Shown in pieces: positions 5,985-37,039 of a DNA stretch of 37,039 nucleotides; positions within the stretch are counted from its first letter, which is position 1, and each line of letters begins with the position of its first letter. The notes beneath the pieces are model-generated. The model saw nothing but the letters and a program-made list of their open reading frames with translations, was not told where the DNA came from and did not search any database. The stretch lies in assembly GCA_051961955.1 (NCBI GenBank), contig JBQCCT010000071.1, positions 1-37,039 of the forward strand. The letters are read 5' to 3'. This DNA is from Solirubrobacterales bacterium (GTDB lineage Bacteria > Actinomycetota > Thermoleophilia > Solirubrobacterales > 70-9). The translations under genes were made by a program, and so were the position numbers.

Positions 5985-6068
5985 CGATTTTCAGTACTCC
6001 CGAACGCAACTCTCCCCAAAGCAGGCACCGCCCAAACATCGGGTCGGAAACCGACGCAGCTTGCGGCG

Positions 6069-12041: not shown

Positions 12042-12204
12042 GGCGCCATTCTACGGCCCGCCACCTGCCAATCAGTACTTTTAGATTTGCTTCAAGTTCC
12101 GGTTCAGCCGGCCACCCAGCGCTTCGCTTCTTCGGTGACACGAGCCAGCGCCGGGGGCAGGCCGATCGTTCCCTGGCATCCCCTCGATCCGCTCGATCAT
12201 CGAT

Positions 12205-13326
12205 TCACACCGGGTACCTCAGGATCGCCGCCGCGGGGCCGCCGCCGGGGACATCGGCGGCCCGCACGGCGAGCACCGTGCCGCCGGCGAGGATGACGCG
12301 ACGACATAGCTCGTCGATGACGCCGTAATCACCGGCCTGCTCGACATCGTCAAGCGACACCGCGCCCGAGTCCTCGTCGATCGTCCCGGCCAGCTTGGCA
12401 TCGATGTCGACAAAGAGGGTTTCGACGGCGCCAAAGGTCGCAGCGCGACCGAGGTCGTTGATCTCGACGGCGCTGCGGCCGGCGGCCGAGCGCTGCTCGA
12501 ACTGGTCGGTCAGGTCGCGTAGCTGGTCGGCGTAAAGGCCGTCGAGGACCTCGCGGGCGGCCTCCCCCAGTTCGGCGTCGGTGGAGGCCTCCGGGCTGCC
12601 CGAAAGCGATCGGTCAGCCAGACGGGGGTAGGAATTAACCGAGCGGAAGATCGCGTCGATCAGCTCGGACGCCGCCAGGATCAGCGGCACGTCGCGGCCG
12701 ACCAGCACCGTCCCCAGCGCCTTGTCAACCGCGCGTGCGTAGTTGCGGACCAGCGTCTTGCGACCCTCGGTGCCCTGCAAGCGCCGGGCCGGGGAGCGGT
12801 CGGTGATCGAGGCCTTGCCGACGGCATCCGCCGCGCCCCTCGGCAGGTCGGGCACGCGCACCTCGAAGGTCGGCAGGTCGGGAGTTACCTCCAACAAGCG
12901 CACCGAGCCCTCGGCGAGTGCCAGCACAAAGGCCGTCTGCGGGAAAGTGACAGTACGCAACAGCGGCTTTACGTAGTAACGGTCGGCGACTTGGACCGCC
13001 GCCGTCAACCGATTCGGCAGGCGAAAGCTGCGCAGGCCGTGAGCGTCGACGAAGACCGCGAGCGAGTGGGCCTGCTCCGCCCAGAACCGATGATCGTCGT
13101 GGAGGTCGTCGAGCGCCTGCTCGATCGCCTCGCGATCGGCCCTGGCACTTCCCGTATCCAACTCCGCCACCGCCTCGCCGGCGAGGTTCTTGAAGGCGAT
13201 CCGGGCCGCATCGGCCTCGGGAGTGATCGGGCTGGTCGGCAGGTAAATCGAGACAAGCTGGTCTCCACGGGCCTGCAGAAGACGCTCGATCTGACGGCGG
13301 CTCGGGATGTCGGTGTGAAGAGCCAC
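12205..13326 (-). CDS. Bacterial archaeo-eukaryotic release-factor-like (baeRF family, baeRF3-like) protein
   Basis: 373 aa. N-terminal ...LVSIYLPT..., central FRLP...DRYYVKPLL, and a C-terminus ending AAILRY match my memory of baeRF-family architecture. Not verified by search. Confidence 0.5.
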   Translation of the reverse strand: MALHTDIPSRRQIERLLQARGDQLVSIYLPTSPITPEADAARIAFKNLAGEAVAELDTGSARADREAIEQALDDLHDDHRFWAEQAHSLAVFVDAHGLRSFRLPNRLTAAVQVADRYYVKPLLRTVTFPQTAFVLALAEGSVRLLEVTPDLPTFEVRVPDLPRGAADAVGKASITDRSPARRLQGTEGRKTLVRNYARAVDKALGTVLVGRDVPLILAASELIDAIFRSVNSYPRLADRSLSGSPEASTDAELGEAAREVLDGLYADQLRDLTDQFEQRSAAGRSAVEINDLGRAATFGAVETLFVDIDAKLAGTIDEDSGAVSLDDVEQAGDYGVIDELCRRVILAGGTVLAVRAADVPGGGPAAAILRYPV

Positions 13327-24326: not shown

Positions 24327-25343
24327 GTGAAGATCGGCCGCAATCACGGGGTCACCCTGCCTGATCAGCTGAGTCGGTTCCAAGACAAGCTGGATCTTTA
24401 CGCAACGGACACCTATTTCCTTGAGAGCTGGGAGGACCTGCTTGCCGTAGCAGGTAATCAATCGCTTGCCTCCCTGTCCCGGTTCGCATCGCTCACGCTG
24501 AAGCCCGACGCGGTGGTGGGACGTACCCTCAAGCCGACGATGAAGTGGCTCGTCGACCATGGTTTCTCCATCGTCGCCGCCGAGCTTGTTTACTTCGACC
24601 GCCACATCACGCGCGGCATCTGGCATTACTCGTGGAACGTCGCCAGTCGCGATCGCAAGGACGTCGTCGACATGCTTCTCCCGGCGACCCCCTCCCTGTT
24701 CCTGGCGCTTCGTGGTCCCGAGGATGCGTCTTTGTGGCTCAGCGCAAACAAGGGCCCGGCCAATCCGAAGTACCGCCAACCGGGCCAACTCCGTTACGGC
24801 CTCGGTTATTTCAGCACCCTGCTCAACTTTGTACATACCTCCGACGAGCCAGCCGACGTCATTCGGGAGCTGGCGGTGTACTTTCCGGCGCCGACCAGAC
24901 GACGCATCTACCAAGCCATGAACTCGGGGGATGCGCTGCAGCACGCGGAAGACCTGGCCAGCGAACTGGAAGATCGATTTCTCCCGCACGACCTTGCGCT
25001 CGACGCCTCGATCGAGCGGATCCGTGTGCTGGTAGATGCTGGCCAGAACGGTGGCAGCCGCGACCGCACGGCCTTGAGGAGCCATCTCGACGAGATAGCC
25101 AACGGAGGTACCCGCGATTGGAAGACGCTCTTTAGCTTGCTCGAGGCAGTCGGAGTTCCTTGCGAGCCCTGGGACCTGATCGTTGTCGCAACTAATCTGG
25201 TTCAGATAGACAATCCGGATGTCGACCCGATGCTGCCAGCTATCAGCTCGTTGAATCTGCCGACCGCGGCGACCGAAATCGAGATAGCAACAGCAAAGGG
25301 CGGTGCTGCCACGGAGCTCCAGAGAGCGCCTACACGAGGGTAG
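24327..25343 (+). CDS. Nucleoside-diphosphate-kinase-fold protein with an unknown ~150-aa C-terminal extension
   Basis: Residues ~53-186 align by eye to NDK: TLKPDAV (cf. IKPDAV), GFSIVAAEL, GPANP...PGQLR, and NFVHTSD (cf. N.[IT]HGSD, His codon at 24834-24836). Lower GC than upstream genes. GTG start. Confidence 0.6.
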   Translation: MKIGRNHGVTLPDQLSRFQDKLDLYATDTYFLESWEDLLAVAGNQSLASLSRFASLTLKPDAVVGRTLKPTMKWLVDHGFSIVAAELVYFDRHITRGIWHYSWNVASRDRKDVVDMLLPATPSLFLALRGPEDASLWLSANKGPANPKYRQPGQLRYGLGYFSTLLNFVHTSDEPADVIRELAVYFPAPTRRRIYQAMNSGDALQHAEDLASELEDRFLPHDLALDASIERIRVLVDAGQNGGSRDRTALRSHLDEIANGGTRDWKTLFSLLEAVGVPCEPWDLIVVATNLVQIDNPDVDPMLPAISSLNLPTAATEIEIATAKGGAATELQRAPTRG

Positions 25344-25464
25344 TGGGCCGGAAGGATCTCTGCGACCTTCGGGTTATGAGGTCTCTGGTGCTGGTTGACT
25401 GGGCTGCTTTTTGGCTTGCTGAAGCGGTTCGAGTTGGTCCGAGTTGGACTGAATTGCGCTCAAC

Positions 25465-25482
25465 TTAGTACCCACTTAGTAC
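25465..25482 (+). repeat. Left copy of the 18-bp direct repeat TTAGTACCCACTTAGTAC
   Basis: Exact match to 32372-32389. Imperfect similarity continues about 12 nt to the right (CGC..GCGAT). Confidence 0.9.
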
Positions 25483-25503
25483 CCGCCGCGATGCCGAGCG
25501 GGG

Positions 25504-25794
25504 TCAGACGCGGGCGATCGCAGCGTCGGACGTCCGAGCGTCGTGGAAGGCGATAACAACGACACGATCCTTGGCCTCGACGTACATGTAGACGACGATC
25601 AGCCAGCCCCAAGGACCGATCAGCGCCCGACAGTCCCGCCAGACACCCGAGAGCTGCTTGCCGGCGCGCGGAAACTCCTCCAACATGAGCAACGTGCGCG
25701 AGACCCGTTCGCGCGTGTCGACCGGAAGCTGGCGAGTCTCGATGAGCTCATGAAGCTCGTCACGCGCCAAGCGCGTGACCTCGATCGTCGCCAT
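25504..25794 (-). CDS. Type II toxin-antitoxin system toxin, RelE/ParE family
   Basis: 96 aa. Lies 3 nt downstream of a ribbon-helix-helix gene. The size and the pattern ...EFPRAGK...RALIGPWGWLIVVYMYVEAKDRVVVIAFHDAR are ParE/RelE-like. Confidence 0.7.
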   Translation of the reverse strand: MATIEVTRLARDELHELIETRQLPVDTRERVSRTLLMLEEFPRAGKQLSGVWRDCRALIGPWGWLIVVYMYVEAKDRVVVIAFHDARTSDAAIARV

Positions 25795-25797
25795 CGA

Positions 25798-26055
25798 CTA
25801 CAGCTCGGAGAGTGGCACCGTCTCGCCACCCCGAGCCTGCTCGATCGAAGCCTGCGCCCTCTCCCATGCTCCAGGAATCCCGTCGAGGATTTCAGTGATC
25901 CGCCACGCATCGGGGTCGGCTTCGTCGAGCGCGCTGGAGAGGAGCGAGCGAGCCAGGGTTCCCTCCTGCACATGCGTGCGCTCCGCCAGGCTCGCCAGCT
26001 TCTGCGCGTAGTCCGGCTCGAGGGTGACGTTGATTCGGCGGTTTCGCTCAGCCAT
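25798..26055 (-). CDS. Ribbon-helix-helix (CopG-like) antitoxin
   Basis: MAERNRRINVTLEPDYAQKLASLAERT is a typical RHH N-terminus. ATG at 26055 is preferred over 26091, because the extension would be encoded by the tandem operator-like repeats. Confidence 0.7.
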   Translation of the reverse strand: MAERNRRINVTLEPDYAQKLASLAERTHVQEGTLARSLLSSALDEADPDAWRITEILDGIPGAWERAQASIEQARGGETVPLSEL

Positions 26056-26059
26056 ATCC

Positions 26060-26090
26060 CAAGGGTACACGCAAGGGTACACGGCGTACA
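26060..26090. promoter_or_regulatory. Tandem 12-bp direct repeat CAAGGGTACACG x2 plus a partial third GTACA core, in the divergent TA/methyltransferase promoter region
   Basis: Read directly: 26060-26071 equals 26072-26083. It sits in the 65-bp gap between the antitoxin start (26055) and the small ORF start (26121). RHH antitoxins classically bind such repeats. Confidence 0.55.
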
Positions 26091-26120
26091 AAACACAAGA
26101 AATCGCGGTAGCCTCAATTT

Positions 26121-26303
26121 ATGGCTCACCACAAGCGCAAACGACCTAAGCACCGCCGGAGCGGTTGTCTCCTCTGCAAGCCTCAGAAGCTGGCGGCGAA
26201 TCGGAAGGCCGCGCGTCGGCGAGCCAACAGCTCTTGGCATCGGCATGAGGCGCTTGCGCATGACGATCCGCCTCATGGCCCCTTTGGCAGGAGTGGACCT
26301 TGA
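26121..26303 (+). CDS. Small highly basic protein with a CxxC pair (60 aa), function unknown
   Basis: MAHHKRKRPKHRRSGCLLCKPQK... Its TGA (26301-26303) overlaps the TTG (26300-26302) that opens the methyltransferase ORF, suggesting coupling. There is no clear SD, so coding status is tentative. Confidence 0.4.
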   Translation: MAHHKRKRPKHRRSGCLLCKPQKLAANRKAARRRANSSWHRHEALAHDDPPHGPFGRSGP

Positions 26304-27568
26304 GTCGAGACGCAACCTCCGAGACCTTCGTGAATCCGAAGGTGGGCGCAAGCTGTGATGCGGTGGACTCGTGGTACCGCTATTACGCGGGTTACTCCGC
26401 CAGCTTCGTCGAACAAGCTCTGAACAAGCTCCCCACAACGACGCAACTAGCACTGGATCCTTGGAATGGCACCGGAACGACCACGGTCGTCGCTGCCAGC
26501 AGAAAAATCTCGGCGGTCGGTTTTGATGTCAATCCAGCGCTAGTCGTGGTTTCTCGAGCCAGGTTGCTGGGCGCGGGAGTGTGGGCAAGCATCAATCCGC
26601 TTGGAGACGATGTGATCGCCCACGCGACTGCGACCGAGCTAGACAATGATGCACTTCGGTTTTGGTTCACGGAGCGCGCAGCCAACTCAATCCGAGGTCT
26701 TCAACAAAGCGTCCACCGCCTTCTCGTTGATAGTGGCACCGCCTCTCAGCCTGCCTATAAGACCTCGCCTGAAATGAGCACGCTCGCCGCTTTCTTCTAC
26801 ACGGCGCTGTTCCGCACCGTGCGGGTACTGATAGCCCCGAGGGGCGGGACCAACCCGACCTGGTGGAAGCGAGTTGCTAAAGCAGATCTTCTAGATCCGC
26901 GCCCTAAGGAGATCGTGAATCACTTCCGAGAGTCCACTCGGGAGTTGGCAAGAGGTCTGCACCGGGACAATTTCGACGGTGGTGTTGATGTCCGAGTGGG
27001 GCTGGCCGACAGTCGCAAGCTCCCGCTGGGCGATGACTCGATCGACGTTGTTGTCGGCTCGCCGCCGTACTGCACGCGAATCGATTATGGGGTAGCTACG
27101 CGCCCTGAGCTAGCGGTGCTTGGCGCAGGGGAGAGTGACGTCAAGCTCTTACGAAACAAGATGGTCGGCACGCCAACGATGACGGAGGACCGAGGGACCC
27201 CCGAGCGATGGGGACCAGCCGCGTCTGCGTTCCTCAAAGGCGTGGCGGGACATACCAGCAAGGCCTCAAGTGGTTATTACACGAACTACTTCCGCCAGTA
27301 TTACTCTGGAATGTGGAGTTCCCTCGGCGAGTTGCGCCGAGTAATGCGAGAAAACGCTTTCGCAGTCTTGGTTGTGCAAGACAACTACTACAAGGACCTC
27401 CACAACGACACCGCTGAGATCTTGGGAGAGATGGCAGTCGCGCGTGGCTTCGAGTCCGCCGAGCGCCACGATTTTCCGGTGATTCGGAACCGGGCGAGCA
27501 TGAATCCCCGCGCCCGTCGGTACCGCGCCAAAGCTTCAGCCGTTGAGAGCGTTCTCGTCCTTCGATAA
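26300..27568 (+). CDS. DNA methyltransferase, amino-MTase type (N4-cytosine or N6-adenine), motif I before motif IV
   Basis: Motif I is LDPWNGTGTT (26456-26482). Motif IV is SPPY (27059-27070), about 190 aa downstream. The exact start is uncertain: TTG at 26300, or an internal GTG. Confidence 0.8.
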   Translation: MSRDATSETFVNPKVGASCDAVDSWYRYYAGYSASFVEQALNKLPTTTQLALDPWNGTGTTTVVAASRKISAVGFDVNPALVVVSRARLLGAGVWASINPLGDDVIAHATATELDNDALRFWFTERAANSIRGLQQSVHRLLVDSGTASQPAYKTSPEMSTLAAFFYTALFRTVRVLIAPRGGTNPTWWKRVAKADLLDPRPKEIVNHFRESTRELARGLHRDNFDGGVDVRVGLADSRKLPLGDDSIDVVVGSPPYCTRIDYGVATRPELAVLGAGESDVKLLRNKMVGTPTMTEDRGTPERWGPAASAFLKGVAGHTSKASSGYYTNYFRQYYSGMWSSLGELRRVMRENAFAVLVVQDNYYKDLHNDTAEILGEMAVARGFESAERHDFPVIRNRASMNPRARRYRAKASAVESVLVLR

Positions 27569-27601
27569 GATTTTCATGGAAAACATGGAAGACGTGGTAA
27601 C

Positions 27602-28429
27602 ATGGATTCCATGGAACGAGTCGAAGATCTAATAGAGGTCGTTACTGCCCTCCGACTCGCCAACGAGGCTTTGGTCGAGGCGACTTCGTCCGGCGATACC
27701 GCTGAGGCGACTCGACTACTCGAGGATGTGGCCATCCTCGAGCGCCGCAGGAACCGCCTGGTGCACAAGAGCAACCCGAAGGTGGCCCCAGCCGGATCGT
27801 CATACGAGTCTTCGATCCCCCTGCGAGATCAGCTGATCCGGACCCTGCGGCTTACGAAACGCCCTTCTAGTGCCCGCTTGGTCTCGGATGTAACGAAGTC
27901 TCGCTGGGGCGAGTCGGTGGATACGCGCAAGCTGTCCTCCCTGCGCCGTGACGAGGCGCGAAGCTGGCGAAAATCTCAAGGGCTACCAGGGCGGCGAGCT
28001 CGCGACGTCTACGTTGTGCCGGCGCTGGCCTTCGACCGGTTCACTCCCGTACGCGGAACGATCGCGCTCTCCACCTGGCCGACCAGTCTGCGGCTAATCG
28101 CCCCGCTCTCGCCTCGGGTCGACATGTTGCACAGCACGATCTCACTCGCCGAAGAGGCGTCGGCCGTAACGGGAACGACCTACGAGGACCCGATGATCCG
28201 TCTGGTGGCCCGCCTTGGCGCGACCATTCCAGGAATCAAACCCTTCGGCGCCGATCCCGAGGCCGTAGCTGAGGGCGCTCGAACGGAGCTAATGGAGATC
28301 GAGGCGAATGATGAACTCGAACGCTCTATGGCCGCGAAGCGAGCTGAATCCCAGCTCGATGCAGAGGCCCTTTTGTTCGGTACTCAGATTCAAACGGTCG
28401 CCCTACACGCCACCGGAGAGTCCCGATGA
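27602..28429 (+). CDS. Hypothetical protein (275 aa), no recognisable motif
   Basis: Clean ORF with codon usage consistent with its neighbours. Its stop overlaps the next start (ATGA at 28426-28429). N-terminal helical/coiled region and a basic central region. Confidence 0.6.
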   Translation: MDSMERVEDLIEVVTALRLANEALVEATSSGDTAEATRLLEDVAILERRRNRLVHKSNPKVAPAGSSYESSIPLRDQLIRTLRLTKRPSSARLVSDVTKSRWGESVDTRKLSSLRRDEARSWRKSQGLPGRRARDVYVVPALAFDRFTPVRGTIALSTWPTSLRLIAPLSPRVDMLHSTISLAEEASAVTGTTYEDPMIRLVARLGATIPGIKPFGADPEAVAEGARTELMEIEANDELERSMAAKRAESQLDAEALLFGTQIQTVALHATGESR

Positions 28430-29595
28430 CCAACACGCCAAGTCGGCTCGAAAGTTTCCGTGGAGAATTCCCCCGGCAACAGCTCAATGCGCGCCGCGTC
28501 GCGGGTGCGCTTGAGGCCCCAGGGTGCGAGCGCCGCACCGCGCTTGATGCGGCAGGGGTCAATCTGGACAAACTCGGAAGCTTGGTGAGCGGTCTCCCAA
28601 GGGATCGGCAGTCGCCGTTCGCCATCGCCCGCGGCAACCAGTTCGAGCAACAAGTATTGGCGAACGGGATGGCAGAGATCGTACGTCTTGCGCGACGTCA
28701 TCTTGACCTTGAGATTCCCGAAGTGCGCCAGCTTGACCTCTCCGCATCCGGGCTAAGAGAAGCCTATCCCGGGATGACCGGAAGCAGGATGAATGAGCTG
28801 CGAGCGACGCTTACGCGCCAGCGAGCGCAGGAGATGCTCGACGACCCGACCCACGCACCCAATCTGATCCGGCACGCCATGACCCGTCTCGACTTCGGTG
28901 GCGAGACCGTCTACCTCGAGCAGGACGTACTCGCCTTCGCCATCAACGGGCGGATTCACGTCATCGAGATCAAGTCCTACCCCCGCATTGATGGGCGCGC
29001 TGATCCAGTCCAAGCCTCGGCGACGGTCCGCCAGACCGCGGTATACGTCCTGAGCCTCCAGCAACTCATGCTCGAGATCGGCGCATCCCGAGATCTCGTC
29101 AATACCGTCACGATGATCGTGCTGCCCGAAAACCTGTCCTTTCAGCCGACTGCGGTGCCTATTGACATCGACATGCAGGTCCGCCGACTGCAACGTCAAT
29201 TGGCGACGGTCCCGCGGGCAGATGAGATCCTCGACGCCATCCCTGCCGGAACCCAGCTGCCACCGCACCCTGTTGGCGGGGCCAGTCCTGACGAGATAGC
29301 AACAGCAGTGACGGCCGCCAAAGAGGCCCTCGCACCACTGTCCCCCCGGTTTACGGACGGATGCGTTTCCTGCCCACTGTTCTCCCACTGCCGGGGCGAG
29401 GCGGAGCTCCATCGCTCCACTGCACGACTCGGCTCCGCCGTGGCGGGCGCCTGCGGCAACGTGACCGACATCGGCGCCGTCCTCGACTTGGCCGAGGGCG
29501 GCCGGGGCCCAGCCGACACCTCCGAGCTGGCAGTTGCGGCGGCCCTTGGGCGCGCTGCCGCCGCGGCCCGGCTCGCAACGAGAGGAATCGCGTGA
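28426..29595 (+). CDS. Cas4/RecB-like PD-(D/E)XK nuclease with a predicted 4Fe-4S cluster
   Basis: D167 (28924-28926), E181-I-K183 (28966-28974), Q203xxxY207. C34 plus C313-x2-C316-x5-C322 (29362-29391) is the Cas4/AddB-type cluster pattern. SD GGAGAG upstream. Confidence 0.75.
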   Translation: MTNTPSRLESFRGEFPRQQLNARRVAGALEAPGCERRTALDAAGVNLDKLGSLVSGLPRDRQSPFAIARGNQFEQQVLANGMAEIVRLARRHLDLEIPEVRQLDLSASGLREAYPGMTGSRMNELRATLTRQRAQEMLDDPTHAPNLIRHAMTRLDFGGETVYLEQDVLAFAINGRIHVIEIKSYPRIDGRADPVQASATVRQTAVYVLSLQQLMLEIGASRDLVNTVTMIVLPENLSFQPTAVPIDIDMQVRRLQRQLATVPRADEILDAIPAGTQLPPHPVGGASPDEIATAVTAAKEALAPLSPRFTDGCVSCPLFSHCRGEAELHRSTARLGSAVAGACGNVTDIGAVLDLAEGGRGPADTSELAVAAALGRAAAAARLATRGIA

Positions 29596-31010
29596 ACGCC
29601 CTGCGTACCCATCAGGCTCTTCGCGCTGCTGACGAGGGCCAAGCCATCGCGAAGACGACTCGGCGTCACATCCATCTAAGCCCACGCCCACTTGTCATCG
29701 TCGGCTACCACCTCGCCGGTGATCCCGGTGCACCACTCGCGTTGATGTGGGGAACCAGAAACGATGAACCCCCTCATTGCATGATCGTCCCGGAGCCTCG
29801 TAACCGTGGCCTCCGGTTCGAGGTCCTTGCCGAATTCGCCACCGAGTTCCTGGCCTATCTCGCCAGGTTCGAAAACCGCGACGAAGCCGGGATATGCCTA
29901 GATGCACCCCAACTCGTCGTTCCCAACGCCCCCACCGCCTCATGGCTAAGCGGAATCGTCGGCCGCTTCACCCGCAACCTGCAGACCGACGGCGACTCCC
30001 CAACGCCACTTTCAGTTCCGCTGGCCGGAAAGCATCTTTCCTTCTTCGTCGACCCTATGCCCGGAAGCTGCCTCGTCCTAGCTGCCACCGAGGTCCTTAC
30101 CACGCACTGGCAAACTGGTCAGCTTCCCTCAGAGGACCTCAATCTGGCAGCCCAACTCGGCTGGATCGATCCTCCGGCAGGCAAGAGCGGCCCGCAAGCC
30201 GCCAAGGAAGGAGAGGCGTCACCCCCAGCCGGCCCTAATTCTGACCCCAACTGGGATGCCGAAACCTTGGTCGAACTGATCCAGGATTGGCATGTCGCCA
30301 GAGACGATTCTGCCCGGGCCTCCGTAAGGCGTGATCTGGAGGGGGAGATTCGCGAGCAGCTCACCCCGGCGTGGAGGGACTGCTGGCGAACTCTGGCTTG
30401 CCTTGACTCCCTGCCAGTCGCGGACCACGTCGCTGAGCGGTGGAAATCGGACCGAGAAGATTGGACCTACCACCTCGATCGAGTCACCGAGGGTCGAGCG
30501 TACTTCCGAAACATCCCCACGCCGACCCAAAACGCAAGCCGGCTGGCCTTTCTGGAGGCCCGAACCGATGAGCTTCAGCGCGAGATGGCTTGGGACGATC
30601 CGCTCGTGATGGCAGCGGTAGTAGCCAGTGGCGAGGCCCTCGCTGGGCACGTTGTGGCAGTGGATCCTGACCGCAGAACCCCGAACTCCAATAACTGGAT
30701 GGTGCGCCGACCCTTGATCACGATCGAGCCGGAACTTGAGTTCAGCCGACCGGCCGGGACGATTCTCTTTCTCTCGACTAACCCTGGCGTAAAGCTGAAA
30801 GTGCTGCCATCGGATCCGGATGGCCTGATCCGCACCGAGGTTCTCAAGGGGGCTAACCAAACCTCGACGATCGGGCGTCTCCCCGATTCCGGCGACGACG
30901 TAGTACTCAGCCCATTTGGAAAGCCCGAGCGCTATCAGCGGCCAAAGGTCGAAGGCATCCCTTGGACGCACCAGCAGATCCCTGAAGTTGACTTTGGGGA
31001 CGCCCAGTGA
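29592..31010 (+). CDS. Hypothetical protein (~472 aa), no recognisable motif
   Basis: GTG at 29592 overlaps the nuclease stop (GTGA), and its stop overlaps the helicase start (GTGA at 31007-31010). The ORF prefix from 29361 overlaps the nuclease out of frame and is Arg-rich shadow. Confidence 0.6.
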   Translation: MNALRTHQALRAADEGQAIAKTTRRHIHLSPRPLVIVGYHLAGDPGAPLALMWGTRNDEPPHCMIVPEPRNRGLRFEVLAEFATEFLAYLARFENRDEAGICLDAPQLVVPNAPTASWLSGIVGRFTRNLQTDGDSPTPLSVPLAGKHLSFFVDPMPGSCLVLAATEVLTTHWQTGQLPSEDLNLAAQLGWIDPPAGKSGPQAAKEGEASPPAGPNSDPNWDAETLVELIQDWHVARDDSARASVRRDLEGEIREQLTPAWRDCWRTLACLDSLPVADHVAERWKSDREDWTYHLDRVTEGRAYFRNIPTPTQNASRLAFLEARTDELQREMAWDDPLVMAAVVASGEALAGHVVAVDPDRRTPNSNNWMVRRPLITIEPELEFSRPAGTILFLSTNPGVKLKVLPSDPDGLIRTEVLKGANQTSTIGRLPDSGDDVVLSPFGKPERYQRPKVEGIPWTHQQIPEVDFGDAQ

Positions 31011-32329
31011 GTGGCGCCGAAGCCGCTGCGAACGCTCGTGAGGAAGTGTGGAATGCCGTCGCGGCGGGCACTCGGTCCATCCTGGTCGACAGTCCCCCCG
31101 GCGCCGGCAAGTCGACCCTCGTGCGAGAGATCAGCCGCCGTGCGAAAGCACGCGCTCAGGTGCCCATCATCGTCCAGACGAATGATCAGGCCGACGACAC
31201 GATCCGTGGCTTCCTTGTCGACCAGGAACGCGGCGAGCCAGCCGTGCGGGTCGGCCGTCTCCACGGACACGACTACATACCCCCCGCTGAATTCGGCTCG
31301 CAGCCAGGAGTGACGTTCAGTCAAGCCATTAACGACCTCCATGACAGCGATCTGATTGTCGCCACTGCCGCAAAGTGGGCGACTGTCAACTTCGACCGAA
31401 CCTGGCCTTTTGCCATCGTGGACGAGGCGTACCAGATGCGGTCGGATCTACTGCTCCCAATCGGAGCACTTATGGAGTCGCTCCTCTTGGTCGGCGACCC
31501 GGGTCAGCTGGCCCCGTTCACCACCGCCGACGATACGCAATTCCGAGGCAGACCACTTTCGCCGGTCGAGACGGCGGCCGCAACGATCCTGACGACCCAA
31601 CCGGCGACCGCTCGCTTTGCCCTACCGATCTCCTGGCGCCTACCCAGCCACGCGACGAACTTGATTTCCGACGCTTTTTACGAGATCCCTTTCAGCGCCG
31701 GCACTAGATCAGAACAACGGCGCTTACAACGTGGCGTCATCCCGCTGCATCGCCGACGGGGGGCGGACGCAGTCGACAGTGCTGCACGCCACGGGTGGGC
31801 TTACATCGAGCTCGACGATCTGCTTATGCCTCAGACTGATCCCGACGCCATCGAGGCGATCGTTGAAGTCGTAGAGGAGACCTTGGAAGCCGACATCACG
31901 ATCGAAGACGAGCATGGAAGCAGGGGCCTCCGCCCCAGCGATGTCGCCGTCGGCGTTACGCATCGAGACCAACGAGAGCAACTCCGCACCGCACTTCAGA
32001 ACTCCGGTATGCAGACCGGGCTGCCCGTCGATGGCGTGGTTGTCGACACTGCCAACGTCCTGCAGGGACGCGAGTTCGAGGTTGTCATCGTCTGGCACCC
32101 GCTTTCCGGCCGCCGAGACGCCGGAGAGTTCCATCTCGACGCTGGTCGGCTATGCGTCCTCTTGAGCCGACATCGACATGCCTGCATCGTCGTCTCCCGC
32201 GGCGGGATCCGCAACCAACTCGCCGGCCACGCCCCAACCGAGCCTGTTTGGTTGGGCGAGAAACCGACCGTCGACGGGTGGCACGCTCACCTCACTGTGC
32301 TCGACCACCTCGTTGAGCACGCGGTCTAA
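31007..32329 (+). CDS. Compact superfamily-1 helicase / P-loop ATPase (Upf1/DNA2-like, AAA_11/AAA_12-type)
   Basis: Walker A PPGAGKST (31100-31117), motif II VDEAYQ, motif III LVGDPGQLAP, motif V TANVLQGREFEVVIV, motif VI-like CVLLSRHRHACIVV. Confidence 0.8.
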   Translation: MSGAEAAANAREEVWNAVAAGTRSILVDSPPGAGKSTLVREISRRAKARAQVPIIVQTNDQADDTIRGFLVDQERGEPAVRVGRLHGHDYIPPAEFGSQPGVTFSQAINDLHDSDLIVATAAKWATVNFDRTWPFAIVDEAYQMRSDLLLPIGALMESLLLVGDPGQLAPFTTADDTQFRGRPLSPVETAAATILTTQPATARFALPISWRLPSHATNLISDAFYEIPFSAGTRSEQRRLQRGVIPLHRRRGADAVDSAARHGWAYIELDDLLMPQTDPDAIEAIVEVVEETLEADITIEDEHGSRGLRPSDVAVGVTHRDQREQLRTALQNSGMQTGLPVDGVVVDTANVLQGREFEVVIVWHPLSGRRDAGEFHLDAGRLCVLLSRHRHACIVVSRGGIRNQLAGHAPTEPVWLGEKPTVDGWHAHLTVLDHLVEHAV

Positions 32330-32371
32330 GCGGTTTGCCGAACCCTCGGGCTGTCGACCCGAAGGTCGAAA

Positions 32372-32389
32372 TTAGTACCCACTTAGTAC
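32372..32389 (+). repeat. Right copy of the 18-bp direct repeat TTAGTACCCACTTAGTAC
   Basis: Exact match to 25465-25482. Confidence 0.9.
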
Positions 32390-32423
32390 TCGCGGGCGAT
32401 ACGACGCGAGCGCCCCAGGCGCG

Positions 32424-32450
32424 AAAAGTCCCCATTTCCGGGGCCTTTTC
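32424..32450 (+). terminator. Weak hairpin followed by a T-run, downstream of the helicase gene
   Basis: AAAAGTCCCC-ATTTCC-GGGGCCTTTT. There are four G:C pairs plus an A/T extension with one mismatch. The T-run partly participates in the stem, so the call is tentative. Confidence 0.3.
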
Positions 32451-33035
32451 TAATAGCGGGGGCGGGTTTTGAACGGATATCCGCGACCGCGTACCGGCTC
32501 ACGGCGACCTGGAACTTGACTCAATCACGCGTTCGCGAGCCGCGGCCACAATGGCCCCATCATCCAGGCCCTTCAGCAGCGTGTCGTGGGCCGCGTGAAG
32601 GCGGGGGGAGCCGGCCCCTTGGCGAGTAGTCGTTGTCTCATGTGAGCACACGGACCAAAAGCCTCGCTGAACCGCCCAGGAGGGCCGACCTTAAGTGCCG
32701 AGTGCTTAGACACCGATCTTAGTAGGCGTTAGCCCCCCGCTCCAGAATCACTGCGCGGTTCGTTTCTAACGCCCTGCCGGGAGATCACGACGAGCCTAGT
32801 CAACTGGCGACGGCTTGCGCCTTCCGGATTGGCTTTGGAGTGGATCGAGCCTCTGCGCCCCGGGGCGCCCGAGCAAACCGCTGGGCTGCCCCAGCTCCCG
32901 TGGCTCGGGTCACGAGGCGATAATCGCGTCCTCCTGGTCCTTCAAGTCGGGGTGCAGTGGAAACGTGGTCAGCGGTCGCGGATCTGCCCCTCGTTTCGGC
33001 CTCTCAGCCCACCTTCAAGTACCGTGCTATTCAAT

Positions 33036-33609
33036 GCCTTTGAGATCGAGGTCTAGGCCGAATTCTTCCCTGAACGTGGCGACTTCTTCGAAGGTTGGGG
33101 GTTCGTCGGCTCCGGGTTCGGGGGCGGCGTGTAGGGGACGTTGACCCAGAAGCGCGAGCTTTCCGTGTTGCCCCAGCGGCCCTAGACGATGACTTCAAGC
33201 TGGAGGATGCCGGGAGGCCAGTTGGCGGTGTTCGTCACCCAGGGTCTGATGGAAGTCGCATCGACCGCTACCCCCGCAAGGTTTTCCAGCCCAGAAAGAA
33301 AGAACTATTCAATGCCACTTCCATCCAGGTTGGCGCGCGCGATCGAACCGTGATCTGGTTCAGACCAGTAGATATGCGAGGCGTCAACGGCAACACCTTC
33401 ACAAGCCGCATCGGCGTCGGAAGTAGTGATCGGACATCCGCAATAAATTCGCCATCGAGTTCAGAGCCATTCGTGTTGACCCGTGCCAACCCATATCCAA
33501 ATCCGTGGGGTCCATAAAGCGCCCCGTGAGCGCGACTGGCCGGCGACGTCAGCATCGCAGCAAACACGACTGCCACCATCAGCATTCTGCAGCAGCTCTT
33601 TGCCGACAT
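33036..33609 (-). pseudogene. Decayed gene: signal peptide, YWTD/beta-propeller-like blades, and a fragment paralogous to the megaprotein at 35510-35730
   Basis: 33036-33255 aligns to 35510-35730 at roughly nine in ten positions. It has a 1-nt deletion and an in-frame TAG (complement of 33182-33184, VIV* versus VIVKD). Upstream, the frame must shift to read ACEGVAVDASHIYWSEPDHGSIARANLDGSGIE, which then hits a stop. Confidence 0.6.
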
Positions 33610-34192: not shown

Positions 34193-37039
34193 CTAGGGCT
34201 TCCACTTCACAATGTGGAGCGGTTCTTTGTCTTCCAGCGCTTGCAACGTTCCCGGGGCCGAGGGGTAGGCCGGCAGAGGCATCAGGGGCGTAAAGTAACT
34301 TTCGGCTTCTATTTCGTTGCCAGCCGTAAGCGTTCCCAGGGCAAGCCCGGTTCCACGCTCCCAGATCGGACCACCACTGTCGCCCCCTTTTGAATTGATT
34401 GCGAACGGAACCGTCGTCAGAATCGGGTTTCCGTCTCCGTGCTCTTCTCCCCAGCGCCGCGTATCTGGAGGCCACTGCATCGCTCCACACTTACTGTGGC
34501 CACGGGTAGAGCCCGCCACGCATACAACCATTCCCTCCTTGGGAGTGGTCACCCCCATGATTCTGATGTCCTGATCTGGCGACCAACGGATCACCCGTGG
34601 CACCATAGCCGGATCTTCTAGACGAATCGCCTCGCCGTCAGTCCCGTATCCCGATTCGTGGGCAACCATGGCGCTCCGTCGCACGTAACCGATCGTTCGT
34701 TCCCAGCAGCCTTCCAGACTTTCGTTTAGCGGGCAGTTGAACTGGTATACCCGGTCGCCGGATAGATAACAGTGACCAGCCGTTAGAAGGAAGCGCCTGT
34801 AGATAGCCGATCCGTCGGGGTTTTGCCCGCCTTTGTCCCAAGCGCCAAAACCAGCCGAACAAGCGGTGGAACCGCGCCCCCAGAGGCGCGTTGCGGCTTT
34901 GACCGCTCCGGTTGGTTCGCCCCAGGCCGAAGTTGACTTAAAGGTGGCCGCTTCGCTCTGCAGATAGACGTGGATCGGTTCTGATCCAAACAGAGCTTCG
35001 AGTTGTTGTGTCACTTCGGCTACGTTCGTAGCGCCGACGTCCACGCGGTTCTGTTCGACGTTGATCTGCACATCAACCAGCCCAGGAATTGAACCTGCAT
35101 CGGCGAGCACCGACCTTTCCAACGATTCCAGAGAACTCAACGAATGAGTTGGGAAACTCGGGAACGGGTGAATGCGGTTAGGTGCAATCAGCCCGCTCGC
35201 TTCCTGAAGCGCCGCCACTGTTTTCGCCTGGGCGGCGGTGAAGCCAACGTAGATGAGTCCTCCATCTCGGTGGCTCACATAGTACCCGGCGTAAACGGAA
35301 ATCGCCCCATTCGCTTCAACCCATTTAGGAATGGCCGTGGCCGCCTGATCGATGTACCTTTCCCTGTATTCCATCTCCGCCGCGTCGACCGCGCGAAGCG
35401 GAACGCCCCAAGTTTCGGAAGTCGCCCGCGCCACTTCCCCCGCCGGCGTCTGCGGGTTGTACCAGTCGCCGATCAGGTTGAAGATCCGTTCGTCGATCGC
35501 GATCTCGTTGCCTTTGAGGTCGAGGTCGAGGCCGAATTCTTCCCTGAACTTGGCGACTTCTTCGAAGGTCGGCGGTTCGGGCGCTTCCGGGTTCGGCGGC
35601 GGCGTGTAGGGGATGTTGACCCAGAATCGCGAGCTTTCCGTGTTGCCCCAGCGGTCCTTGACGATCACTTCGAGCTGGAGGATGCCGGGTGGCCAGTTGC
35701 CGGTGTTGGTCACCCAGGGGTCTTCGAAGGTTTTGCAGTTCGTCGTTTCGGTCACTTCGCAGGTCTTTTCGTCGACAAGCTGGTTGCCGTTGGCGACGAT
35801 CTTGATCGAAGCGATCCCGGGTTCCGCCGAATGGGCTTGGACCAAGAGCTCGTAGTCCCCCGCTTCGATCGGCGTCGCGGTTTCCTTGTTCGCGTAGAGG
35901 CTGCCCGAGAGGTTCTCGATTTCCGGGGCGAGCTGCGTGTTCCACCACTTGAGCACGGAGCCGTCGGGGGCGATGTCGTAGACGGTCGCCAGTTCCCCTT
36001 CTGGCGAGACCGTGGTCCGCTTCGGTTCGGTTTTGTATTTGAAGGTCGTGGTCTTGGCTTTGGCGCCTTCGACCGAGACGCTCACCGATTCGACTCGGCC
36101 GTAGGCTTCGTATTTGACTTCCCCCCAGGTGCCGTTGGGAAGCGTGACTTTGGTCAGGCGTTGCTGGGAGTCGTAGGTGTATTCGGTTTTGCCCCGTGAT
36201 CCGCTGACGGAGGTGAGCAGCTGGCCCTGGTGGGAATAGGTGGTGGCTCCGGCCTTTTCCCCTTCGACGCTGGTGACGAGGCCGGAGGACGTTTTGACCG
36301 CGACGGCGGGATCGGGTTCGACCGGGGCGGTCGCCGTGCTCGGCGCGGTGCTTCGAGCCACCCACCTCTCGATCCGGTTGTTGCCGGGATCCGTCACCCG
36401 GATGTTGCCGTTTGCTTCGATTGCCACACCGGCCGGGTCGCTGAGGCTGAACTGGCCCGTCCCGGCGCCGCTCGAGCCGAACTTGCTGACGTATTTGCCC
36501 GCTTCGGAGAGCTCCTGGACGCGCCCGTTGCCCTGGTCGGCGACGAAGACGTTGCCTTCGGCGTCGGTCTCGATCGCGTCGGGGTGTTTGAATTCGCCGT
36601 TGCCCGTCCCTTCTTTGCCCACCGTGCGTTTGTAGGCGTAGGAAGAGGTCCACTCCTCGATCCGGTTGTTCCCGGTGTCGGCGACCCAGAGGTAGCCGTT
36701 GGGGGCGGTGGCGATCGCGGTCGGTTCTTTCAACTGGCCTTCGCCTGAGCCCAGCGAGCCGAAGTGGGTGAGCAGTTCGCCGTTCGTGTTGAACTTCTCG
36801 ACCCGGTTGTCGGTCTTCTCGACGACGAAGAAGTTGCCGCCGCCGCTGGTCGTGATCCCGATCGGCGCTGCCATCAGGCCTTCGGCTGAGCCGGTGCTGC
36901 CGGCCTGGCAGACGTTGCCTGAGGAGGCGGTGCAGTGGTTCTTTTCGGCCAGGGTGCCGCCGGATTCGACCTTGGTCTTGTTGACGTTGGCGCCGACCGC
37001 GGAGACGAATTCCCCTTTTTCGTTGAAGCGCACGACGCG
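34193..37039 (-). CDS. Large secreted multidomain protein, 5'-truncated by the window edge: NHL repeats, YD repeats, Ig-like region, alpha-lytic-type pro-region and S1 (chymotrypsin-fold) serine peptidase
   Basis: NHL blades (GSGEGQLKEPTAIA...WVADTGNNRIEEW and two more). YD repeat TEYTYDSQQRLTKVTLPNG. Catalytic LLTAGHC (His) and KGGDSGGP (Ser) are at the C-terminus. The ORF is open to the end of the window. Confidence 0.8.
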   Translation of the reverse strand, partial: RVVRFNEKGEFVSAVGANVNKTKVESGGTLAEKNHCTASSGNVCQAGSTGSAEGLMAAPIGITTSGGGNFFVVEKTDNRVEKFNTNGELLTHFGSLGSGEGQLKEPTAIATAPNGYLWVADTGNNRIEEWTSSYAYKRTVGKEGTGNGEFKHPDAIETDAEGNVFVADQGNGRVQELSEAGKYVSKFGSSGAGTGQFSLSDPAGVAIEANGNIRVTDPGNNRIERWVARSTAPSTATAPVEPDPAVAVKTSSGLVTSVEGEKAGATTYSHQGQLLTSVSGSRGKTEYTYDSQQRLTKVTLPNGTWGEVKYEAYGRVESVSVSVEGAKAKTTTFKYKTEPKRTTVSPEGELATVYDIAPDGSVLKWWNTQLAPEIENLSGSLYANKETATPIEAGDYELLVQAHSAEPGIASIKIVANGNQLVDEKTCEVTETTNCKTFEDPWVTNTGNWPPGILQLEVIVKDRWGNTESSRFWVNIPYTPPPNPEAPEPPTFEEVAKFREEFGLDLDLKGNEIAIDERIFNLIGDWYNPQTPAGEVARATSETWGVPLRAVDAAEMEYRERYIDQAATAIPKWVEANGAISVYAGYYVSHRDGGLIYVGFTAAQAKTVAALQEASGLIAPNRIHPFPSFPTHSLSSLESLERSVLADAGSIPGLVDVQINVEQNRVDVGATNVAEVTQQLEALFGSEPIHVYLQSEAATFKSTSAWGEPTGAVKAATRLWGRGSTACSAGFGAWDKGGQNPDGSAIYRRFLLTAGHCYLSGDRVYQFNCPLNESLEGCWERTIGYVRRSAMVAHESGYGTDGEAIRLEDPAMVPRVIRWSPDQDIRIMGVTTPKEGMVVCVAGSTRGHSKCGAMQWPPDTRRWGEEHGDGNPILTTVPFAINSKGGDSGGPIWERGTGLALGTLTAGNEIEAESYFTPLMPLPAYPSAPGTLQALEDKEPLHIVKWKP

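What the first reader, a model, noticed from the sequence alone, without database searches (positions are those of the whole stretch)
25465..32389. Perfect 18-bp direct repeats precisely bracket the TA + defence cassette, with no recombinase inside
TTAGTACCCACTTAGTAC occurs at 25465-25482, 22 bp past the toxin stop, and again at 32372-32389, 42 bp past the helicase stop. Weaker similarity continues for about 12 more nt (CGC..GCGAT).

An exact 18-mer recurring by chance in 37 kb is very unlikely (on the order of 10^-2). Both copies sit exactly at the outer ends of the outermost genes.

This looks like attL/attR, or a duplicated target, of a site-specifically inserted islet. However, I found no integrase, transposase or tRNA in or beside it. 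The element may therefore be mobilised in trans, or may be a fossil.

The repeat itself is an internal near-tandem: TAGTAC-CCACT-TAGTAC.
Basis: seen in the sequence. Interest (0 to 1): 0.75.

Follow-up and report, generated by a model that had tools for sequence, protein, structure and literature searches.

The report
Integrase arm sites flanking a decayed island
The two 18-bp repeats are real, but they are conserved end sequences (most likely integrase-binding "arm" sites) of a family of mobile islands that insert into the initiator tRNA gene of Solirubrobacterales bacteria; the copy in this window has lost its integrase and is a fossil carrying a toxin-antitoxin pair and a later-inserted defence-like gene cassette.

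Summary
The exact 18-mer is at 25465-25482 and 32372-32389, as reported.

It is not a target duplication or a crossover core. It occurs in about 140 other Solirubrobacterales loci, always in one of two fixed contexts beside a tRNA-fMet gene or its displaced 3' half.

The motif is a tandem pair of 11-mers, TTAGTACCCAC/TTAGTACCCGC. It marks the inner, cargo-side edge of both att arms. At least four sister element families carry different tandem 11-mers at the same distances. Seven relatives with this motif encode a tyrosine integrase of one closely related type (85-94% identical).

This is the architecture of arm-type integrase sites. Binding itself is inferred, not shown.

In the window, decayed tRNA-fMet halves lie just outside each repeat (about 25339-25380 and 32453-32489). 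There is no integrase, and the right-hand core has lost its anticodon-loop segment. The islet is therefore a CIME-like fossil.

A relative (L075) has both 18-mers only 779 bp apart, around the toxin-antitoxin pair alone. The 6.1-kb methylase/Cas4-like nuclease/helicase cassette (26216-32346) is therefore a secondary insertion. The same cassette rides on tRNA-Leu, tRNA-Pro and tmRNA elements elsewhere.

Its mechanism, and the claim that no tRNA is present, are wrong.

The parts
25339..25380 (-). Left tRNA-fMet 3'-half remnant (displaced copy). The anticodon loop to the start of the T-stem is intact. The T-loop and acceptor have decayed and overlap the stop codon of the NDK-like ORF.
   Evidence: Exact match to CTGCGACCTTCGGGTTATGAG at 25360-25380. 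Alignment to intact tRNA-fMet genes of L054 and L023.
25381..25464 (+). Proximal part of the P arm of the family-I att site. It includes tandem 10-mers CGAGTTGGtc/CGAGTTGGac at 25430-25449, which are candidate excisionase (RDF) sites.
   Evidence: 85-91% identical over window 25360-25488 in about 30 genome loci. Tandem found. Conservation profile.
25465..25486 (+). Repeat copy 1: tandem 11-mers TTAGTACCCAC TTAGTACCCGC. This is the innermost conserved block of the P arm and a putative arm-type integrase site pair.
   Evidence: It starts 85 nt from the anticodon-loop junction, as in all family-I P arms (GTACC core at offset 87).
25504..25794 (-). ParE/RelE-like toxin gene (96 aa).
   Evidence: Pfam ParE_toxin E=4e-4, below the curated cut-off. 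84-92% aa-identical homologues lie directly next to the same repeat in about 20 other loci.
25798..26091 (-). Antitoxin gene. The longest ORF is 97 aa; a public gene call on the identical Logan contig gives 85 aa (25798-26055).
   Evidence: Weak RelB-like/HTH hits. Conserved with the toxin in relatives. Gene call.
26121..26303 (+). Small basic ORF (MAHHKRKRPKHRRSGCLLCKPQKL...). Its 3' part was replaced by the cassette insertion at 26215/26216. In L075 the intact ORF ends at the TAG inside repeat copy 2.
   Evidence: No family hit.
26216..32346 (+). Secondary insertion of 6131 bp carrying the five-gene cassette. It is absent from the otherwise collinear TA-only islet of L075.
   Evidence: L075 positions 1-751 align to window 25465-26215 (86%) and 755-801 align to 32347-32393 (44/47). 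Homology to cassettes in L063-L070 spans 26105/26315 to 32311-32331.
26300..27568 (+). N6/N4 DNA methyltransferase (422 aa).
   Evidence: Pfam N6_N4_Mtase E=2e-7. PADLOC MTase_II E=2.5e-18, full length.
27602..28429 (+). 275-aa protein of unknown function; part of the cassette.
   Evidence: No Pfam, PADLOC, NCBIfam or PDB-sequence hit. Conserved in every cassette copy.
28426..29595 (+). 389-aa Cas4/Exo5/MGME1-like PD-(D/E)xK nuclease with a four-cysteine (Fe-S type) signature.
   Evidence: AlphaFold2 model with pLDDT 91.2. Foldseek probability 1.0 to 9iac, 7lw9 and 3l0a, though with low TM-scores of 0.26-0.30. Invariant C34, C313, C316 and C322, and a D...EIK motif.
29592..31010 (+). 472-aa protein of unknown function; part of the cassette.
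   Evidence: No hits. Gene length as called on public contigs.
31007..32329 (+). SF1B (Dna2/Upf1-like) helicase-like ATPase (440 aa).
   Evidence: Pfam AAA_11 and AAA_12. PDB Dna2 and Nam7.
32347..32371 (+). Distal extension of the P' arm (cgggctgtcgacccgaaggtcgaaa). It is shared with L007, L017, L054 and L075, and in L075 it is the 3' end of the small ORF.
32372..32393 (+). Repeat copy 2: tandem 11-mers TTAGTACCCAC TTAGTACTCGC. This is the innermost conserved block of the P' arm.
32394..32452 (+). Variable spacer followed by a bidirectional terminator hairpin (stem-loop 32428-44) that follows the tRNA gene in relatives.
32453..32489 (-). Right tRNA-fMet remnant. The acceptor and T-loop are retained with a 6-nt insertion. 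The anticodon stem-loop, which is the presumed crossover region, is missing.
   Evidence: ATAGCGGGGGCGGGTTTTGAAC matches with 2 mismatches. No TTCGGGTTATGAG nearby. Alignment shows a homologous decayed copy in L010.

Best explanation
The 18-mers are the core of a 22-bp tandem pair of 11-mers, TTAGTACCCAC/TTAGTACCCGC. This pair forms the innermost conserved block of both arms (P and P') of the attachment site of one family ('family I') of tyrosine-integrase elements. These elements integrate into the initiator tRNA-fMet gene of Solirubrobacterales.

In such elements the integrase exchanges strands within the tRNA 3' half; the homology break is at the anticodon loop. Its second DNA-binding domain most likely binds the arm 11-mers on both sides to assemble the recombination complex.

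After integration one arm lies at each end of the element, just inside a copy of the tRNA 3' half. Everything the element carries is therefore bracketed by the two 22-mers.

The window holds a decayed, integrase-less derivative of this kind, in this order:
- tRNA-half remnant
- P arm
- ParE-like TA pair
- small ORF
- P' arm
- terminator
- tRNA remnant

A 6.1-kb methylase/nuclease/helicase cassette was later inserted into it, 25 bp before the second repeat.

The right-hand core has lost its anticodon-loop segment, so the islet is most likely immobile now. It probably persists because of the addictive TA pair and a selectable defence cargo.

**Shown:**
- the conserved two-context architecture
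- the tRNA halves
- the family-specific tandem 11-mers at fixed distances
- the link between arm family and integrase family
- the empty-site comparison for the cassette

**Inferred:**
- that the integrase, rather than another protein, binds the 11-mers
- loss of mobility
- the defence function
For: 1. **Two fixed contexts.** About 140 copies of the 18-mer fall into two classes.
   - Class A has a conserved 85-nt upstream arm preceded by the reverse complement of the tRNA-fMet 3' half.
   - Class B is followed by a variable spacer of about 25 nt, a terminator, and then an intact tRNA-fMet or its 3' half.
   - Intact tRNA genes were confirmed by ARAGORN and Rfam.
2. **Edge of conservation.** Conservation stops exactly at the cargo-side edge of the 22-mer in both classes. 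Positions outside the search pattern (cgAAC before it, CCGC after it) are conserved, while the adjacent spacer or cargo is not.
3. **Variants keep the core.** Diverged copies keep the GTACCC core and the 11-nt spacing.
   - L042: TTGGTACCCGC x2
   - L037: ATAAGTACCCGAAGTAGTACCCGC
   - L016: TTAGTACCCGAATTAGTACCCGC
4. **Sister families.** Other arms at the same tRNA halves carry different tandem motifs at the same distances, and for several families in both arms.
   - Motifs: TTGCCCCA x2, TGACGGCA x2, AGACGAC x2, ATGGGGCC x2.
   - They lie 84-100 nt from the junction.
5. **Integrases.**
   - Tyrosine integrases (Pfam Phage_integrase, E=2e-35) sit 2-5 kb inside the family-I P arm in L014, L041, L044, L094, L112, L132 and L150.
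   - These seven are 85-94% identical to each other.
   - Integrases next to other arm families are only 47-55% identical.
6. **attP-like junction.** L003 shows P'-core-P contiguous within 226 bp.
7. **Window anatomy.**
8. **Empty site for the cassette.** L075.
Against: - No binding data exist.
- Pfam assigns no arm-binding domain to the N-terminal ~95 residues of the family-I integrase.
- All loci were ascertained through the exact 18-mer. Family I is therefore over-represented, and conservation inside the 18 nt cannot be measured from these hits.
- In L019, L036 and L038 a core-looking RibD gene abuts the P' unit directly. It is therefore unresolved whether the 22-mer plus terminator downstream of the tRNA is ancestral chromosomal sequence or always element-borne.
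- No hit in IMG/VR and no free circular form was seen.
- Every family-I islet seen end to end within the fetched DNA, and examined for it, lacks an integrase. This could mean something other than repeated decay.
Confidence: 0.75

Rival explanations
1. The 22-mer is bound not by the integrase but by another protein of the recombination complex, such as an excisionase (RDF), a host nucleoid protein or an element-encoded regulator. The att-arm context is the same, but the binding partner differs.
For: - No named arm-binding domain was found in the integrase N-terminus.
- An HTH protein is encoded directly upstream of the integrase in L014.
- Tandem direct repeats are also typical of Xis sites.
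Against: - The motif is in both arms, whereas Xis-type sites are classically in one arm only.
- A separate tandem 10-mer (CGAGTTGG x2; TCGGCTGGGA x2 in family II) exists in the P arm only. It is the better RDF candidate.
- Arm family co-varies with integrase family.
Confidence: 0.15
2. The 22-mer plus terminator is native chromosomal sequence downstream of tRNA-fMet, for example a regulatory or termination-associated site. It was copied into elements only as part of an unusually long attP/attB homology and has no role in recombination.
For: - The class-B unit follows an intact tRNA-fMet in at least 30 loci.
- In L019, L036 and L038 it abuts the core-like RibD gene.
Against: - The same tandem also lies on the other side of displaced tRNA halves in a different context, the P arm.
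- Sister families have analogous but different tandems in both arms.
- L002, L037 and L116 show a different flank on the acceptor side of the displaced half, while P'(I) sits next to the restored tRNA. This is as expected if P'(I) is element-borne.
Confidence: 0.08
3. The 22-mers are themselves recombination sites for exchange of cargo cassettes, in an integron-like or dif-like system. The TA plus defence cassette entered by recombination at the 18-mer.
For: - Variable cargo lies flush between the two copies.
- Three 'hybrid' copies have a variable upstream flank joined to the toxin downstream flank exactly at the 18-mer edge (L075, L078, L081). This shows that recombination or deletion can end at the motif.
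Against: - No copy combines the A-type upstream arm with the B-type downstream terminator, which integration at the 18-mer would create. None was seen among about 140 copies; the two flagged are false A calls.
- L075 has both copies without the cassette.
- The cassette's homology to copies elsewhere ends at its coding limits, not at the 18-mers.
- There is no hairpin-forming attC-like structure and no IntI.
- The hybrids are explained by deletion between directly repeated 22-mers of adjacent elements.
Confidence: 0.05
4. The repeat is a chance coincidence.
For: 7.7% of Markov-simulated windows contain some exact repeat of at least 18 nt.
Against: About 140 occurrences lie in the same two structured contexts in one bacterial order.
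Confidence: 0.01

Closest known systems
Arm-type sites in the attP of heterobivalent tyrosine integrases (lambda Int P1/P2 and P'1-3, mycobacteriophage L5, pSAM2), cited from my own knowledge of the field
   Same: - Short direct repeats, often adjacent pairs, lie in both arms about 60-130 bp from the core.
- They are specific to each integrase family.
- After integration one set lies at each end of the element.
- A separate tandem between core and arm sites on one arm only resembles Xis sites.
   Different: - Binding is untested here.
- The integrase N-terminus has no recognisable Pfam arm-binding domain.
- The target is the initiator tRNA, in an uncultured order.
[quoted passage not shown]
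   Same: A tyrosine integrase (with an excisionase-like HTH gene next to it in L014) recombines an identity segment that overlaps the 3' end of a tRNA gene and keeps the tRNA functional. Remnants are common.
   Different: - No replication or transfer genes were identified in the pieces seen.
- In this family, variable defence cargo sits between the P arm and int.
- The window copy has neither int nor an intact tRNA.
[quoted passage not shown]
   Same: - An integrase-less islet still bounded by both att arms.
- It is embedded in a tandem array (accretion) at a tRNA gene where related integrase-bearing elements insert.
   Different: - The right core site has lost its crossover segment, so even cis-mobilisation is doubtful.
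- Mobilisation has not been observed.
Defence-gene hotspots in integrated mobile elements (PMC10201445; also P2/P4 prophage hotspots, from my own knowledge)
   Same: The position just inside the P arm holds different defence systems in different relatives:
- Septu plus AbiE
- Mrr plus PD-Lambda-5
- RosmerTA
   Different: The cassette here matches no catalogued system beyond its methylase and generic helicase hits.
Integron gene cassettes (attC)
   Same: Promoter-proximal variable cargo sits between repeated sites, and TA cassettes stabilise the arrays.
   Different: - The repeats here are direct tandem 11-mers, not imperfect palindromes.
- The crossover is in a tRNA half.
- There is no IntI and no attI.

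Membership tests
attL/attR of a tRNA-targeting tyrosine-integrase element | A direct repeat of the tRNA 3' part at both ends of the element | tested here: inconclusive
   Both ends carry tRNA-fMet-derived sequence, but the two remnants retain different parts: anticodon loop/variable region on the left, T-loop/acceptor on the right. No intact identity segment is shared. Relatives (L037, L116, L062+L054) show the full repeat.
attL/attR of a tRNA-targeting tyrosine-integrase element | A cognate tyrosine integrase encoded in the element | tested here: not met
   No integrase in the window. It is present in seven related family-I elements.
attL/attR of a tRNA-targeting tyrosine-integrase element | An intact target tRNA restored at one junction | tested here: not met
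   ARAGORN finds no tRNA in the window, and the right remnant is decayed. The feature is met in L017, L023, L024, L035, L040, L052, L054 and many metagenome loci.
Arm-type integrase binding sites | A repeated short motif in both arms, at a fixed distance from the core, specific to the integrase family | tested here: met
   At least five arm motifs lie at 84-100 nt from the junction. Family-I integrases are 85-94% identical to each other, against 47-55% for those next to other arms.
Arm-type integrase binding sites | Bound by the N-terminal domain of the integrase | not testable with these tools
   Pfam gives no domain for residues 1-95. The structure tool does not accept this sequence.
CIME (cis-mobilizable element) | [quoted passage not shown] | tested here: met
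   Between the repeats lie only the TA pair, the small ORF and the five-gene cassette.
CIME (cis-mobilizable element) | Retains functional attL and attR | tested here: inconclusive
   Both arms are well preserved, but the right core lacks the anticodon-loop segment.
CIME (cis-mobilizable element) | Can be mobilised by an element that integrates next to it | not testable with these tools
   This needs excision or transfer assays, or read-level junction evidence.
Integron cassette / attC | An imperfect inverted-repeat attC site and an adjacent IntI integrase | tested here: not met
   The repeats are direct tandems and no integrase is in the window.
Target-site duplication of a transposon | The duplication is created by the insertion, so relatives without the insert carry one copy | tested here: not met
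   L075 lacks the cassette but has both copies. No transposase is present.

The most novel reading that the evidence does not exclude
The many small integrase-less islets that keep both family-I arms may not be mere wreckage. Examples are the TA-only islets of about 0.8-1 kb and the 2-8-kb islets carrying Septu/AbiE, Mrr/PD-Lambda-5 or this cassette.

They could form a pool of att-flanked cassettes. The family-I integrases of co-resident elements would excise, capture and re-insert them, in trans or in cis. That would amount to an integron-like exchange system for defence and TA genes at the initiator-tRNA locus of Solirubrobacterales.
Probability: 0.15. Interest if true: 0.6.

Novelty: new member of a known kind. 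Interest (0 to 1): 0.4.

Why it matters
- **Annotation warning.** A perfect repeat that brackets a cassette need not mark the recombination crossover. Here it marks protein-binding arms, and the real core is a decayed tRNA half that tRNA finders miss.
- **New map of a hotspot.** The work defines an unstudied integration hotspot, initiator tRNA-fMet, in an uncultured soil actinobacterial order. At least five element families there are distinguishable by their arm 11-mers.
- **Practical use.** This gives a signature for delimiting islands and defence hotspots in these genomes.
- **Candidate defence module.** The work also flags a widely travelling five-gene methylase / Cas4-like nuclease / SF1B helicase module as a candidate uncharacterised defence system.

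Tried and rejected
- **Known ncRNA.** Rfam gave only a sub-threshold DUF3800-IX hit at 32411-32468 (27.3 bits against a cut-off of 36.8). It was not reproduced in eight related loci and was rejected as a terminator-hairpin artefact.
- **Integration at the 18-mer itself.** This predicts copies with an A-type upstream flank and a B-type downstream flank. None was seen.
- **Phage origin.** The 18-mer is absent from IMG/VR.
- **Integrase relic in the window.** tblastn and an HMM profile found nothing. One 36-residue stretch at 33186-33350 (11 bits, E=0.004 before correction for 13 queries) is treated as noise.
- **Arm-binding domain.** A Pfam search of the integrase N-terminus at E<=10 found nothing.
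- **Middle cassette proteins.** Pfam, PADLOC, NCBIfam and PDB-sequence searches of the 275-aa and 472-aa proteins found nothing.
- **Source genome.** Only a 6.6-kb Logan contig identical to window 24627-31216 was found, so the rest of the genome could not be searched for a trans-acting integrase.
- **'tRNA-like' piece upstream of copy 2.** I first read 32347-32371 this way. L075 shows it is the 3' end of a small ORF.

Full report
**1. Observation**

The 18-mer TTAGTACCCACTTAGTAC is present exactly twice, at 25465-25482 and 32372-32389 on the + strand. No further match exists with up to three mismatches.

- Copy 1 lies 21 nt from the stop codon of a ParE/RelE-like toxin gene (25504-25794, minus strand).
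- Copy 2 lies 42 nt past a helicase-like gene that ends at 32329.
- Pairwise similarity extends only to A.[18-mer].CGC, so the unit is a 22-mer made of two 11-mers.
- Simulation shows that some exact repeat of at least 18 nt arises in 7.7% of composition-matched windows. The decisive evidence is comparative.

**2. The motif is lineage-wide and occurs in two fixed contexts**

A scan of one genome per species found the 18-mer in 61 stretches, almost all from Solirubrobacterales MAGs of many species. A metagenome scan found 96 more stretches, about 11 of them unrelated low-GC chance hits. IMG/VR has none.

The copies fall into two classes.

- **Class A**, like window copy 1. It has a conserved upstream arm of about 85 nt (...ggcttgttcaagcggttCGAGTTGGtcCGAGTTGGacctagtttcgctcaac). 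That arm is preceded by the reverse complement of the 3' half of a tRNA, ending at ...GACCTTCGGGTTATGAG. What follows the motif is variable.
- **Class B**, like window copy 2. What precedes the motif is variable. It is followed by CCGC, a variable spacer of about 25 nt, a bidirectional terminator hairpin, and then the reverse complement of the same tRNA.

The tRNA after class-B copies is either intact or only its 3' half, broken at the anticodon loop. It is intact in L017, L023, L024, L035, L040, L052, L054 and many metagenome loci.

The tRNA is the initiator tRNA-fMet. It has a C1xA72 mismatch and GGG/CCC in the anticodon stem.

In L003 a B copy and an A copy lie 208 bp apart with one tRNA half between them. 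This is the contiguous P'-core-P arrangement expected of an attP or of a junction between tandem elements.

**3. Why I read the 22-mer as an arm-type site pair**

- **a. Conservation stops at the motif.** Conservation ends exactly at the cargo-side edge of the 22-mer in both classes. Flanking positions that were not part of the search pattern (cgAAC before, CCGC after) are conserved, whereas the adjacent spacer or cargo is not.
- **b. Diverged copies keep the core.** Copies found through their tRNA half rather than through the 18-mer keep a GTACCC core at 11-nt spacing:
  - TTGGTACCCGC x2
  - ATAAGTACCCGAAGTAGTACCCGC
  - TTAGTACCCGAATTAGTACCCGC
- **c. Other arm types share the geometry.** Other arms at the same tRNA halves carry different tandem motifs at the same places, for several families on both sides of the core. 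They start 84-100 nt from the anticodon-loop junction, or lie about 60-70 nt beyond the tRNA 3' end.
  - TTGCCCCA x2, with inverted TGGGGCA
  - TGACGGCA x2
  - AGACGAC x2
  - ATGGGGCC x2
- **d. Mixed arm families.** Arms of different families are combined on the two sides of one tRNA half (for example II|I, I|II, III|I, I|IV). This is what successive integrations into the same tRNA predict.
- **e. Integrases track arm family.**
  - Tyrosine integrases (Pfam Phage_integrase, E=2e-35) lie 2-5 kb inside the family-I P arm in seven elements.
  - All have the same orientation and are 85-94% identical to one another.
  - Integrases next to other arm types are 47-55% identical.
- **f. A second tandem on one arm only.** A second tandem occurs only in the P arm, between core and 22-mer: CGAGTTGG x2 in family I and TCGGCTGGGA x2 in family II. 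This is where excisionase sites usually lie.

Binding itself is not shown. Pfam gives no domain for the integrase N-terminus.

**4. Anatomy of the window**

From left to right:

| Coordinates | Feature |
|---|---|
| to 24343 and 24327-25343 | RibD-like and NDK-like genes |
| ~25339-25380 | Decayed tRNA-fMet half; anticodon loop to T-stem start intact |
| 25381-25486 | P arm ending in copy 1 |
| 25504-26091 | Toxin and antitoxin |
| 26121-26303 | Small basic ORF |
| 26300-32329 | Five-gene cassette |
| 32347-32452 | P' arm starting with copy 2 at 32372, then spacer and terminator |
| 32453-32489 | tRNA remnant keeping acceptor and T-loop but lacking the anticodon stem-loop |

- A homologous decayed copy of the right remnant exists in L010, so it is old.
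- No integrase or other recombinase is detectable in the window.
- GC content drops from 0.68-0.72 to 0.57-0.65 from about 24 kb to the window end. The whole right-hand part therefore looks like an island array.

**5. The cassette is a secondary insertion**

The ParE-like TA pair sits directly against the class-A copy in about 20 loci, at 84-95% amino-acid identity.

L075 has both exact 18-mers 779 bp apart around the TA pair and the small ORF only. It aligns to window 25465-26215 (86%) and 32347-32393 (44/47), leaving 3 nt unaccounted for. Window 26216-32346 (6131 bp) is therefore an insertion into a pre-existing mini-islet. It cut the 3' end of the small ORF, which in L075 ends at the TAG inside copy 2.

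L116 and L037 show TA islets next to an intact tRNA-fMet.

**6. What the cassette is**

The genes are:
- an N6/N4 methyltransferase
- a 275-aa protein with no hits
- a 389-aa protein modelled at pLDDT 91 that matches Cas4/Exo5/MGME1-type PD-(D/E)xK nucleases
  - Foldseek probability is 1.0 but TM-scores are low.
  - It has four invariant cysteines and a D...EIK motif.
- a 472-aa protein with no hits
- an SF1B Dna2/Upf1-like helicase

The block is 74-84% identical at the DNA level from methylase start to helicase stop in other contigs. There it rides on elements with other integration modules, and none has the 18-mer:
- tRNA-Leu plus integrase (L064)
- tmRNA plus a large serine recombinase (L065)
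- tRNA-Pro plus int/xis (L067)

L064 shares even the small-ORF junction and a toxin remnant.

Homologues of the nuclease reach Chloroflexota and a gammaproteobacterial MAG.

In relatives, the equivalent position inside the P arm holds Septu plus AbiE, Mrr plus PD-Lambda-5, or RosmerTA. This supports a defence role by association only.

**7. Mechanism and status**

*Shown:* the att architecture, the tRNA halves, the family-specific tandems, the link with integrases, and the cassette's empty site.

*Inferred:*
- The integrase arm-binding domain binds the 22-mers.
- The islet arose by loss of int and the element body, which makes it CIME-like as defined in PMC5704250.
- It is now immobile because the right core lacks the crossover segment.
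- TA addiction and defence benefit maintain it.

Three hybrid copies (L075, L078, L081) have a variable upstream flank joined to the toxin exactly at the motif edge. This indicates that deletions between directly repeated 22-mers of neighbouring elements fuse islets.

**8. Unresolved**

It is not settled whether the 22-mer plus terminator downstream of tRNA-fMet is ancestral chromosome or always element-borne.
- For the ancestral reading: RibD abuts it directly in L019, L036 and L038.
- For the element-borne reading: L002, L037 and L116 show a different flank at the displaced half.

It is also unknown how the cassette inserted. There is no target duplication and there are no terminal repeats.

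**9. Verdict**

The 'inserted islet' reading is partly right. The repeats are arm sites, not the crossover site, and the cassette came later.

This is a new example of well-known biology: tRNA-targeting tyrosine-integrase elements, tandem accretion and CIME-like decay. The setting is an unstudied lineage, and the cargo is an interesting uncharacterised defence-like module.

Noticed in passing
window 26300-32329; loci L063-L070: A five-gene block is conserved at 74-84% nucleotide identity. It comprises a methylase, a 275-aa unknown, a Cas4/Exo5-like Fe-S nuclease, a 472-aa unknown and an SF1B helicase.

It is carried by elements with four different integration modules. Homologues occur in Actinomycetota, Chloroflexota and a gammaproteobacterial MAG.

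No catalogued defence system matches it, so it is a candidate new system.
   Followed up: partly
window 26121-26303; L075, L116: A small, very basic ORF (MAHHKRKRPKHRRSGCLLCKPQKL...) is conserved, divergently oriented, next to the ParE-like TA pair in TA-only islets. In L075 it ends at the TAG inside the second 18-mer. It has no family hit.
   Followed up: partly
L006, L013, L014, L016, L019, L020, L009, L004 and other related loci: At least four further arm families occur at the same tRNA-fMet halves. Each has its own tandem 11-mer: TTGCCCCA, TGACGGCA, AGACGAC or ATGGGGCC. tRNA-fMet is thus a multi-family integration hotspot in Solirubrobacterales.
   Followed up: partly
L062+L054 (DASSBJ010000096.1), L016, L014: Known defence systems lie just inside the family-I P arm:
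- Mrr-type IV restriction enzyme plus PD-Lambda-5 A/B
- Septu PtuA/PtuB plus AbiEi/AbiEii
- RosmerTA RmrA
   Followed up: yes
window 34193-37033 (-) and 33030-33244: A 946-aa ORF has NHL, RHS and trypsin-like domains. Its residues 439-510 are repeated, at 84-86% amino-acid identity, about 1 kb downstream of its stop, like an orphan fragment of a polymorphic-toxin locus. L082 also has an RHS-like gene between two class-B units.
   Followed up: partly
window 24327-25343 (+): An NDK-like ORF (Pfam NDK, E=1e-11) ends exactly at the decayed acceptor end of the left tRNA half. It has no counterpart in the 61 genome loci compared by blastn or the 96 metagenome loci compared by tblastn. It occupies the place where relatives have terminator plus 22-mer.
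   Followed up: no
L018 ~5190-6799 and L026 ~4122-5700: IS66-family insertions sit at the same position, between the spacer and the terminator of the P' arm, in two different MAGs.
   Followed up: no
L075, L078, L081: In these 'hybrid' copies a variable upstream flank is joined to the toxin gene exactly at the 18-mer edge. In L081 the tRNA half is fused directly to '...ctcaac' plus the 18-mer. These look like deletions between or next to the repeated 22-mers.
   Followed up: partly
window 32411-32468: A sub-threshold Rfam hit to DUF3800-IX RNA (27.3 bits, cut-off 36.8) overlaps the terminator hairpin. It was not reproduced in eight related loci and is judged spurious.
   Followed up: yes
window 33186-33350 (+): A 36-residue stretch weakly resembles the beta-hairpin region of the family-I integrase (11 bits, E=0.004 before multiple-test correction). 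It is probably noise but could be an integrase relic.
   Followed up: partly
window 10500-12500: A second low-GC segment (0.57-0.61) contains a 493-aa minus-strand ORF at 10560-12041. It was not examined.
   Followed up: no
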